Shown here piece by piece: positions 7,336 through 7,621 of a DNA stretch of 64,000 nucleotides. This stretch comes from Escherichia coli (GTDB taxonomy: Bacteria > Pseudomonadota > Gammaproteobacteria > Enterobacterales > Enterobacteriaceae): NCBI RefSeq assembly GCF_045037415.1, contig NZ_CP173438.1. The stretch is one strand, 5' to 3'. Position 1 is the first letter of the stretch. Every line of letters begins with the position of its first letter. The position numbers and the translations under genes were made by a program. Under the pieces are notes generated by a model that was not told the DNA's origin, searched no databases, and saw nothing but the letters and a program-made list of their open reading frames with translations.

Positions 7336-7584
7336 GTCGGAGATACAGGTATGTCAGTACGTAGTTTGTACCGAATGTTTGCCGATAAAGGTTTGGTGGT
7401 CGCGCAATATATTCGTAACCGTCGTCTCGATTTTTGTGCAGATGCGATTCGCCATGCCGCAGATGATGAAAAACTGGCAGGCATTGGCTTTCATTGGGGA
7501 TTTTCCGACCAGAGTCATTTTTCAACGGTATTTAAACAACGCTTTGGGATGACGCCAGGCGAGAATCGGCGTAAATTCCGCTAA
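7336..7584 (+). pseudogene. feaR: feaR 3' remnant (C-terminal HTH part of the AraC-family regulator FeaR), 5'-truncated
   Basis: ORF 7351-7584 translates to [76 protein letters not shown], the AraC-type second HTH; the frame closes at a TGA at 7327-7329, so the N-terminal ~220 aa are absent. Confidence 0.75.
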
Positions 7585-7621
7585 CTAATTCGCGTTGCAT
7601 GTACAGCAACGCGAATTAGTT
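7583..7621 (+). terminator. Perfect 16-bp inverted repeat (aactaattcgcgttgc / gcaacgcgaattagtt) with 7-nt loop immediately after the feaR stop; probable terminator or protein-binding palindrome
   Basis: Read directly; arms are exact reverse complements. No strong T-run follows. Confidence 0.4.

What the first reader, a model, noticed from the sequence alone, without database searches (positions are those of the whole stretch)
7583..7621. Perfect 16-bp-arm palindrome immediately after the feaR remnant stop
The arms aactaattcgcgttgc and gcaacgcgaattagtt are exact reverse complements around a 7-nt loop that itself contains the palindrome tgtaca. It is too perfect for chance and lacks a clear T-tract. 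It could be a bidirectional terminator separating feaR from ydbL or a protein-binding site.
Basis: seen in the sequence. Interest (0 to 1): 0.25.

Follow-up and report, generated by a model that had tools for sequence, protein, structure and literature searches.

The report
Protective hairpin ending the ydbL mRNA
The perfect palindrome between the convergent genes feaR and ydbL is real and specific to E. coli, and published K-12 data suggest it is an ordinary RNA hairpin that marks and protects the 3' end of the ydbH-ynbE-ydbL message after Rho-dependent termination, not a classical terminator or a protein-binding site.

Summary
The arms are 17 nt (7582-7598 and 7606-7622), the loop is ATGTACA, and the TAA stop of the feaR remnant lies inside the left arm. 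It is the longest perfect inverted repeat in the window and no T-tract follows it on either strand.

The site is a single locus found only in E. coli proper. About 4,088 of 5,426 complete genomes carry it, as five haplotypes. One stem pair occurs as C:G, G:C, A:T or a C.C mismatch, so pairing is kept while sequence is not. A sister Escherichia clade and other genera with the same convergent genes lack it.

Published K-12 data place the ydbH-ynbE-ydbL transcript end at the hairpin base. That 3' end is absent in pnp and rnb mutants. A bicyclomycin-sensitive Rho termination region lies about 120 nt further on, inside antisense feaR.

Best reading: a stem-loop without a U-tract that stops 3' exonucleases and stabilises a Rho-terminated mRNA (the Dar and Sorek 2018 class). 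A role for feaR mRNA is only inferred. An efficient intrinsic or collision-type bidirectional terminator, a PaaX operator and a dispersed repeat are not supported. Low interest; a new member of a known kind.

The parts
7582..7598 (.). Left arm of the palindrome (TAACTAATTCGCGTTGC). Its first three bases are the TAA stop of the feaR remnant.
7599..7605 (.). Loop ATGTACA. In K-12-type alleles it is ATGTACT, which extends the stem to 18 bp with a 5-nt loop.
7606..7622 (.). Right arm of the palindrome (GCAACGCGAATTAGTTA).
7591..7591 (.). Stem position 10, which pairs with 7613. This is the covarying pair: C:G here, G:C in K-12 and TUM14759 types, A:T in Z30 type, C.C mismatch in BL21 type.
   Evidence: counts
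7580..7584 (-). Inferred steady-state 3' end of the ydbH-ynbE-ydbL mRNA. It is mapped by homology from K-12 positions 1446382 (PNPase and RNase II 'stop' site) and 1446378 (transcription-unit boundary).
   Evidence: transfer to this strain is inference
7582..7755 (-). 3' UTR of ydbL, about 174 nt and ending in the hairpin. This E. coli-specific spacer has no counterpart in the sister Escherichia clade (L008).
7756..8082 (-). [quoted passage not shown]
8090..10911 (-). ynbE (8090-8275) and ydbH (8272-10911), the upstream genes of the same operon.
7333..7584 (+). feaR remnant (C-terminal helix-turn-helix part only, N-terminus deleted). It is fused back-to-back to a paaY remnant at about 7334.
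7440..7480 (-). Approximate counterpart of the K-12 Rho termination region (1446501 +, about 121 nt past the hairpin, antisense to feaR). The RNA just upstream of it, +61 to +140 from the hairpin, is mildly richer in C than G.
   Evidence: position transferred by homology

Best explanation
The palindrome acts as RNA. It is the terminal stem-loop of the 3' UTR of the ydbH-ynbE-ydbL mRNA (- strand of the window). RNA polymerase transcribing the operon passes the hairpin, because no U-tract follows it. Rho then releases the polymerase within roughly the next 100-200 nt, in the untranslated RNA antisense to feaR. PNPase and RNase II trim the tail back until they stall at the base of the 17-18-bp stem. 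This gives a precise, protected 3' end about 2 nt from the stem and so sets the stability of the message. The sequence is a perfect palindrome, so feaR mRNA would carry the same hairpin starting at its own stop codon in strains with an intact feaR, and the hairpin could protect that 3' end too. Shown for K-12 in published data: the 3' end at the hairpin base, its dependence on PNPase and RNase II, and the Rho dependence of read-through. Inferred: that the same holds for the allele in this window, that the hairpin causes the exonuclease stop, and any role for feaR mRNA.
For: Structure: a perfect 17-bp stem at -26 to -31 kcal/mol, z about -6.4 to -7, with no T-tract on either side. Position: it ends the ydbL 3' UTR between convergent genes. 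K-12 experiments: Liu et al. 2023 (PMC10667835) list a 3' end at 1446382 (+), labelled 'ydbL UTR-3'. It holds 48% of local 3' ends in wild type and 0 in the pnp and rnb deletion strains (FDR 0.040 and 0.027). It appears in the sheets 'PNPase ends in WT' and 'RNase II ends in WT', and the operon boundary is given as 1443007-1446378. The K-12 palindrome is 1446340-1446380. Adams et al. 2021 (PMC7815308) list a Rho termination region at 1446501 (+), antisense to feaR, with Rho score 4.0 and p = 1.3e-5. Coverage falls from 54 to 14 untreated but goes from 87 to 91 with bicyclomycin. These are the defining traits of the class described by Dar and Sorek 2018 (PMC6061677). Evolution: stem pairing is kept while sequence changes. 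One pair is C:G (878 genomes), G:C (1,349 + 1,320), A:T (129) or C.C (412). The other two stem variants seen are G.U wobbles, and 99% of cells are paired against 20-48% in slid controls. C exceeds G downstream (C/G 1.2 over 200 nt, 1.6 at +61..120).
Against: All transcript data come from K-12, not from this strain or allele. Read counts at the site are low (log2 cpm about 3.6) and each mutant library was a single replicate. Adams et al.'s curated Term-seq 3' ends contain no entry at this site in three conditions. A 3' end 2 nt from the stem is compatible with an exonuclease stop, but the boundary at 1446378 is 7 nt after the GC-rich upper stem, which is also where weak intrinsic termination would release RNA. 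The hairpin is dispensable: one strain has lost the left arm by a 15-nt deletion and another by an IS1-associated deletion, and about 540 genomes match only part of the 441-nt region (4,693 with any match, 4,154 with at least 80%). It is absent in sister species. The mismatch allele is common (10%). The compensatory changes could come from DNA-level palindrome correction rather than selection on RNA.
Confidence: 0.6

Rival explanations
1. Bidirectional transcription terminator for the convergent pair ydbL/feaR. It would be either a weak intrinsic terminator (8-bp GC-rich upper stem followed by AAUUAGUUA in both directions) or the collision-type 'overlapping bidirectional terminator' of Ju et al. 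2019, in which a stem-loop positions head-on RNA polymerase collisions.
For: The palindrome lies between convergent genes and gives an identical hairpin and tail on both strands. The K-12 transcription-unit boundary at 1446378 is 7 nt after the upper stem, the distance at which intrinsic terminators release RNA. The collision class is described as unlike intrinsic terminators in sequence and as needing a stem-loop. A second perfect palindrome in the window also sits between convergent genes.
Against: Only 4 T in any 8-nt window after the stem, and the scan does not call it. In K-12 with bicyclomycin, coverage past the hairpin equals coverage before it (87 vs 91), so the hairpin alone does not stop polymerase, and the region is Rho-dependent whereas the collision class is described as Rho-independent. 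The 3' end disappears in exonuclease mutants. In this window feaR lacks its N-terminus and upstream region, so no convergent polymerase is expected. No feaR-sense 3' end is on record.
Confidence: 0.2
2. A largely neutral DNA palindrome. It would have arisen with the E. coli-specific spacer and be kept perfect by replication template-switching (quasipalindrome correction) rather than by selection. Its effect on RNA 3' ends would be incidental.
For: It is young and restricted to one lineage. In four strains its primary sequence varies about as much as the rest of the spacer (5 of 41 against about 14 of 130 variable columns, counted from the alignment). Changes are symmetric at one pair with a common mismatch intermediate. 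It is a site of deletions, including an IS1 junction exactly at the border between loop and right arm. Loss is tolerated. Template-switch correction of quasipalindromes in E. coli is established knowledge (Ripley; Lovett laboratory), recalled and not tested here.
Against: The mRNA 3' end does map to it in K-12. Relatives whose feaR and ydbL stops abut carry a different strong hairpin at the same relative place, inside the last feaR codons, which hints at a need for a structure there. The mismatch allele has persisted in 412 genomes without being 'corrected'.
Confidence: 0.15
3. Operator for a dimeric DNA-binding protein, for example PaaX (the repressor of the neighbouring phenylacetate genes) or another regulator of feaR or ydbL.
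For: Perfect dyad symmetry. The arms contain TAATTC...GAATTA, one base per half-site away from the PaaX half-sites TGATTC/GAATCA. The locus adjoins the fea/paa cluster in K-12.
Against: The spacing is N21, not N27. K-12, T and Z alleles change the half-site itself (TAATTG, TAATTA) while keeping pairing. The site is at the 3' ends of both genes, not at a promoter. It is absent from relatives that have the same genes. paaX lies in the stretch deleted from this strain, if the gene order is as in K-12 (inference), yet the palindrome is perfectly kept.
Confidence: 0.04

Closest known systems
3'-terminal protective stem-loops of Rho-dependent transcripts (Dar and Sorek 2018, NAR 46:6797; Peters et al. 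2012 for the REP-associated subset)
   Same: A stable stem-loop with no U-tract after it and no A-tract before it. The steady-state 3' end lies right at its base. The end depends on PNPase and RNase II. Rho-dependent termination occurs further downstream, where C mildly exceeds G.
   Different: This hairpin is not a REP element. It is an unusually long perfect palindrome (17-18 bp), it overlaps the stop codon of the convergent gene, and it is confined to E. coli proper. It has not been studied individually.
Overlapping bidirectional terminators between convergent genes (Ju, Li and Liu 2019; Wang et al. 2022 preprint 10.1101/2022.10.23.513370)
   Same: A stem-loop without a canonical U-tract, shared by a convergent gene pair.
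   Different: That class is described as Rho-independent and driven by head-on polymerase collisions. Here read-through is Rho-sensitive in K-12, only one strand's 3' end is documented, and in this window the partner gene is a remnant.
Canonical intrinsic (Rho-independent) terminator
   Same: A GC-rich upper stem and a position just after coding regions.
   Different: There is no U-tract (4 T of 8), and the end is sensitive to bicyclomycin and dependent on exonucleases.
Natural quasipalindrome mutation hotspots in E. coli (template-switch model; thyA and lacZ reporter systems of the Lovett laboratory)
   Same: A near-perfect palindrome in which a change in one arm is matched by the complementary change in the other.
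   Different: No mutation-rate data exist for this site. The pattern is seen across natural strains, not in a reporter, and selection on RNA pairing explains it equally well.

Membership tests
Protective 3' stem-loop of a Rho-dependent transcript (Dar and Sorek 2018) | Energetically stable stem-loop at the transcript end | tested here: met
   17-bp perfect stem, -25.9 and -30.9 kcal/mol, z = -6.4 and -7.0. All five haplotypes fold at -21 to -29 kcal/mol.
Protective 3' stem-loop of a Rho-dependent transcript (Dar and Sorek 2018) | No uridine-rich tract after the stem and no A-tract before it | tested here: met
   The ydbL-sense tail is GCGGAAUUUACG and the feaR-sense tail is AAAACAGAUAUU. The scan finds no terminator-like site.
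Protective 3' stem-loop of a Rho-dependent transcript (Dar and Sorek 2018) | Precise steady-state RNA 3' end immediately downstream of the stem | tested here: met
   From published K-12 tables only: 3' end at 1446382 and unit boundary at 1446378, against a palindrome at 1446340-1446380. Not measured in this strain, and absent from Adams et al.'s curated Term-seq list.
Protective 3' stem-loop of a Rho-dependent transcript (Dar and Sorek 2018) | Read-through increases when Rho is inhibited | tested here: met
   Published K-12 data: Rho termination region at 1446501 (+), Rho score 4.03, p = 1.3e-5, coverage 54->14 untreated and 87->91 with bicyclomycin.
Protective 3' stem-loop of a Rho-dependent transcript (Dar and Sorek 2018) | The 3' end is generated by PNPase and RNase II trimming | tested here: met
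   Published K-12 data: proportion of ends 0.484 in wild type against 0 in the pnp deletion (FDR 0.040) and 0 in the rnb deletion (FDR 0.027). Counts are low and each mutant has a single replicate. The RNase R sheet could not be checked because the stored file is cut.
Protective 3' stem-loop of a Rho-dependent transcript (Dar and Sorek 2018) | C exceeds G (rut-like) downstream of the stem | tested here: inconclusive
   C/G is 1.2 over 200 nt, 1.6 at +61..120 and above 2 at +181..280. This is mild and was not compared with a genome-wide background.
Canonical intrinsic terminator | U-tract directly after a GC-rich stem | tested here: not met
   At most 4 T in 8 after the full stem or the 8-bp upper stem, on both strands. 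Not called by the scan.
Canonical intrinsic terminator | Termination independent of Rho | tested here: not met
   In K-12 the coverage drop disappears with bicyclomycin.
Collision-type overlapping bidirectional terminator (Ju et al. 2019) | Actively transcribed convergent gene pair with overlapping 3' ends on both strands | tested here: inconclusive
   The genes converge in K-12, but only the ydbL-sense 3' end is on record. In the window feaR is a remnant without its N-terminus.
Collision-type overlapping bidirectional terminator (Ju et al. 2019) | Independence from Rho | tested here: not met
   The class is described as Rho-independent, whereas this site lies in a Rho termination region.
Dispersed palindromic repeats (REP/BIME, ERIC and the like) or a mobile-element end | Many copies per genome, or occurrence in different contexts | tested here: not met
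   One locus per genome; the maximum of 2 'places' is both strands of the same site (blastn word 11, E <= 1). All 119 metagenome matches have the same flanks. No viral contig matches. There are no other copies in the window.
PaaX operator | TGATTC-N27-GAATCA | tested here: not met
   The window has TAATTC-N21-GAATTA and K-12 has TAATTG-N21-CAATTA.
Any curated RNA family (Rfam 15) | Match at the family's gathering score | tested here: not met
   Only chance hairpin hits to eukaryotic miRNA models (28.6 bits against a gathering score of 90).

The most novel reading that the evidence does not exclude
The site could be a natural hotspot of palindrome-preserving double substitution. Within one species the same stem pair has been remade as C:G, G:C and A:T, with a C.C intermediate still present in about 10% of genomes, while 14 of the 17 pairs never vary. 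If these changes came from repeated template-switch 'correction' during replication, and not from selection on the RNA, this would be a population-scale record of quasipalindrome mutagenesis in wild E. coli. It would also caution against reading within-species covariation in perfect palindromes as proof of RNA function.
Probability: 0.25. Interest if true: 0.35.

Novelty: new member of a known kind. Interest (0 to 1): 0.15.

Why it matters
The practical value is modest. The finding explains how the ydbH-ynbE-ydbL message gets a defined, protected 3' end although it has no classical terminator. [quoted passage not shown] The work also gives a clean natural allelic series at one stem pair: perfect C:G, G:C and A:T alleles, a C.C mismatch, and arm deletions. 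That series could be used to test how hairpin stability sets exonuclease stalling and mRNA half-life. For annotation, the lesson is that a perfect palindrome without a T-tract between convergent E. coli genes need not be a bidirectional intrinsic terminator or an operator. The second such palindrome in this window, between the tpx-like and tyrR-like ORFs, may be of the same kind, but it was only inspected.

Tried and rejected
1. Rfam scan of 7000-8400 at E <= 10: only chance hairpin hits to miRNA and snoRNA models.
2. PaaX operator. The lead came from memory of the consensus. The review PMC9493321 gives TGATTC-N27-GAATCA, and both spacing and sequence fail.
3. Repeated or mobile element. There are no extra copies in the window, in E. 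coli genomes, in plasmids or phages (the hits are chromosomal fragments) or in viral contigs. All metagenome matches share one context.
4. Conservation outside E. coli. YdbL-anchored loci from 59 species show no homologue. The spacer is not alignable even to the sister clade.
5. Published 3'-end tables. The TERMITe supplements have nothing. The Adams et al. curated Term-seq list has no end at the site. No supplements are held for the nanopore paper or for Dar and Sorek. Ju et al. 2019 is not held.
6. Promoter-like sites in the spacer: none called.
7. A 13-codon ORF in the ydbL 3' UTR (ATG at about 7685 on the - strand). All four differences from K-12 change the amino acid or the start codon, so I did not treat it as coding (read).
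8. G.U strand-asymmetry test to decide which strand's RNA is selected. Both single-arm transitions found give G.U in the feaR-sense RNA and C.A in the ydbL-sense RNA. Two events (chance 0.25) are too few to conclude anything.

Full report
OBSERVATION. The sequence at 7582-7622 is TAACTAATTCGCGTTGC ATGTACA GCAACGCGAATTAGTTA. It has two 17-nt arms that are exact reverse complements, separated by a 7-nt loop. The TAA stop of the feaR remnant (ORF 7351-7584, + strand) is the first three bases of the left arm, so the palindrome overlaps the stop and does not follow it. This is the longest perfect inverted repeat in the 64-kb window, and 20 shuffled windows gave at most 8-10 nt. As RNA it folds at -25.9 kcal/mol (+ strand) and -30.9 kcal/mol (- strand, 71-nt context), with z-scores of -6.4 and -7.0. 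No T-tract follows on either strand and the consensus scan calls no terminator there. Even if only the GC-rich upper 8 bp are taken as the stem, the tail AATTAGTTA has 4 T in 8.

CONTEXT. The window matches E. coli strains such as SK1144. In them a deletion has fused a paaY remnant (- strand, about 7006-7334) to the C-terminal part of feaR (about 7333-7584, +). The feaR N-terminus, feaB, tynA and most of the paa cluster are gone. On the - strand lie ydbL (7756-8082), ynbE and ydbH, which form one operon. The hairpin therefore sits between the 3' ends of two convergent genes, at the far end of a roughly 174-nt ydbL 3' UTR.

DISTRIBUTION AND VARIATION. The 441 bp around the site match 4,693 of 5,426 complete E. 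coli genomes, with one place per genome at the median and at most two. I counted exact 70-mers made of 12 nt of flank, the palindrome and 17 nt of flank. This gave five haplotypes:
- W, the window type: pair 10 is C:G and the loop is ATGTACA; 878 genomes, some with intact feaR.
- K, the K-12 type: pair 10 is G:C and the loop is ATGTACT, which makes an 18-bp stem with a 5-nt loop; 1,349 genomes.
- B, the BL21 type: pair 10 is a C.C mismatch; 412 genomes.
- T, the TUM14759 type: like K, but the closing pair is changed C to T and the first loop base A to G; 1,320 genomes.
- Z, the Z30 type: pair 10 is A:T; 129 genomes.

One rare allele has a G.U at pair 13. On the six distinct sequences, 14 of 17 pairs never vary, two vary to G.U, and pair 10 shows three different Watson-Crick pairs plus the mismatch. 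In all, 99% of cells are paired, against 20-48% when the partner column is slid by 1-3 positions. With six closely related sequences this shows that pairing is retained while sequence is not. It is not a strong statistical test, since 25 of 500 shuffles reach the observed score. In four aligned strains the hairpin's primary sequence varies about as much (5 of 41 columns) as the rest of the spacer (about 14 of 130).

The palindrome is a single-locus feature. A word-11 blastn of the 41-mer at E <= 1 finds no second site in any genome; two 'places' are the two strands of the same site. All 119 matches in metagenome contigs to AATTNGCGTTG-N9-CAACGCNAATT have the same flanks and the same five haplotypes. 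Viral contigs gave none. The plasmid and phage hits are chromosomal fragments.

The palindrome can be lost. Strain 21319 lacks the left arm through a 15-nt deletion. In ETEC1739 an IS1 end abuts the right arm exactly at the border with the loop.

OUTSIDE E. COLI. I collected loci anchored on YdbL from 59 species. feaR converges on ydbL in a sister Escherichia clade (L008) and also in some Citrobacter, Silvania, Leclercia, Yokenella and a Klebsiella MAG. None has the palindrome. Between K-12 and L008, homology stops at the last ydbL codons and resumes at the feaR stop codon. The 180-nt E. coli spacer and the 79-nt L008 spacer do not align. In the other genera the two stop codons nearly abut. 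There, a different strong but imperfect hairpin lies inside the last feaR codons. Few relatives have a canonical terminator after ydbL. The element is therefore young and lineage-specific.

TRANSCRIPT EVIDENCE (K-12, published tables). The K-12 palindrome is at 1446340-1446380. ydbL is on the + strand (1445880-1446206) and feaR on the - strand (1446378-1447283).

Liu et al. 2023 re-analysed SEnd-seq libraries of wild type and of pnp, rnb and rnr deletion strains. They list a 3' end at 1446382 (+), 'ydbL UTR-3', which holds 48% of local 3' ends in wild type and 0 in the pnp deletion (FDR 0.040) and 0 in the rnb deletion (FDR 0.027). By their definition it is an exonuclease 'stop' site. They give the ydbH-ynbE-ydbL unit as 1443007-1446378. 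Both coordinates lie within 2 nt of the base of the stem.

Adams et al. 2021 list a Rho termination region at 1446501 (+), antisense to feaR. Coverage in the 800-nt windows before and after that point is 54 and 14 untreated, and 87 and 91 with bicyclomycin (Rho score 4.03, p = 1.3e-5). The downstream window lies wholly beyond the hairpin, so the hairpin alone does not stop most polymerases when Rho is inhibited.

Caveats: counts are low, each mutant has a single replicate, bicyclomycin also raises antisense transcription generally, and Adams et al.'s curated Term-seq list has no end at this site. No record exists for a feaR-sense 3' end.

INTERPRETATION. These features match, point by point, the class defined by Dar and Sorek 2018. 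In that class, Rho-dependent transcripts have precise steady-state ends right after stable stem-loops that lack U-tracts. The ends are made by PNPase and RNase II trimming, and C mildly exceeds G downstream. Here C/G is 1.2 over 200 nt and 1.6 at +61..120, just before the Rho region.

I therefore read the palindrome as the protective terminal stem-loop of the ydbH-ynbE-ydbL mRNA (confidence about 0.6). Because it is a palindrome, feaR mRNA would carry the same hairpin. That is inference only, and it does not apply in this window, where feaR is a remnant.

RIVALS.
(a) A bidirectional terminator, either weakly intrinsic or of the collision type of Ju et al. 2019. The convergent setting and the boundary at +7 from the upper stem speak for it. 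The missing U-tract, the Rho and exonuclease dependence, and the lack of a transcribed partner gene in this strain speak against it (0.2).
(b) A neutral DNA palindrome kept perfect by template-switch correction. It is young, dispensable, prone to deletion and variable at one symmetric pair. However, the mRNA end does map to it, and relatives have another hairpin at the same relative place (0.15).
(c) A protein operator. The PaaX site is TGATTC-N27-GAATCA, whereas here the sequence is TAATTC-N21-GAATTA, and the half-site itself changes between alleles (0.04).
Rfam has nothing.

NOVELTY AND SCORE. The kind is known, and the K-12 3' end is already in published tables, although this hairpin has not been described individually. 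The allelic series at pair 10 is a neat detail. It could be used experimentally, and it may record palindrome-correcting mutation in nature. Overall interest is low (0.15).

Noticed in passing
window 42660-42694: This is the second-longest perfect palindrome in the window (15-nt arms, AATATGCCTGATGGT ATTGC ACCATCAGGCATATT). It also lies between convergent ORFs, 3 nt after the stop of a 168-aa ORF (42150-42656 +; tpx-like by my reading) and 5 nt before the stop of a 522-aa ORF (42700-44268 -; C-terminus reads like TyrR). It also lacks a T-tract. A 'tpx UTR-3' entry appears among the PNPase stop sites in the passage shown.
   Followed up: partly
window about 7006-7340: A deletion junction fuses a paaY remnant (- strand) back-to-back to the C-terminal 77-84 codons of feaR. 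The feaR N-terminus, feaB, tynA and most of the paa cluster are absent, as in SK1144 and ST131-type strains. Z-haplotype strains carry a shorter annotated remnant (207 nt), which may be an independent deletion.
   Followed up: partly
window 2734-6678: The 1,139-aa '+ strand ORF' with internal repeats (2734-6153) lies opposite a very large gene on the - strand. That gene is annotated in SK1144 as a BigA/YdbA N-terminal beta-barrel domain protein (8.6 kb), so the + strand ORF is probably an antisense artefact of a repetitive adhesin gene.
   Followed up: no
L066 (ETEC1739) 1400-1540; L068 (EC190486); L065 (strain 21319) 1490-1510: There are rearrangement endpoints at or near the hairpin. An IS1 end is joined exactly at the border between loop and right arm, with loss of everything to the left. 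A second strain has IS1 inside the last feaR codons. A third strain has a 15-nt deletion that removes the left arm.
   Followed up: partly
L014, L015, L017, L042, L051, L052 (about 0-60 nt past the ydbL stop): In genera where the feaR and ydbL stop codons nearly abut, the last feaR codons themselves form a strong imperfect hairpin (for example AGCGCTTACGGTATTCGCC TGG CGAAATGCCGAAGCGCT). It sits at the place the E. coli palindrome occupies relative to ydbL.
   Followed up: partly
L007-L010 versus window 7756-8082: E. coli YdbL is only 73-78% identical to YdbL of E. albertii, E. whittamii and cryptic Escherichia clades, whereas FeaR of L008 is 96% identical to the K-12 protein. At the DNA level ydbH-ydbL is 87% identical against 95% for feaR. 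The two sides of the spacer therefore have different divergence histories.
   Followed up: no
L006 (Escherichia sp. MOD1-EC7003) about 2895 onward; hits H27-H30: Some genomes share the ydbL 3' UTR only up to ...CAGGAGAAG(G/A)CG and then continue into unrelated DNA, so they lack the hairpin. About 540 genomes match only part of the 441-bp region.
   Followed up: no
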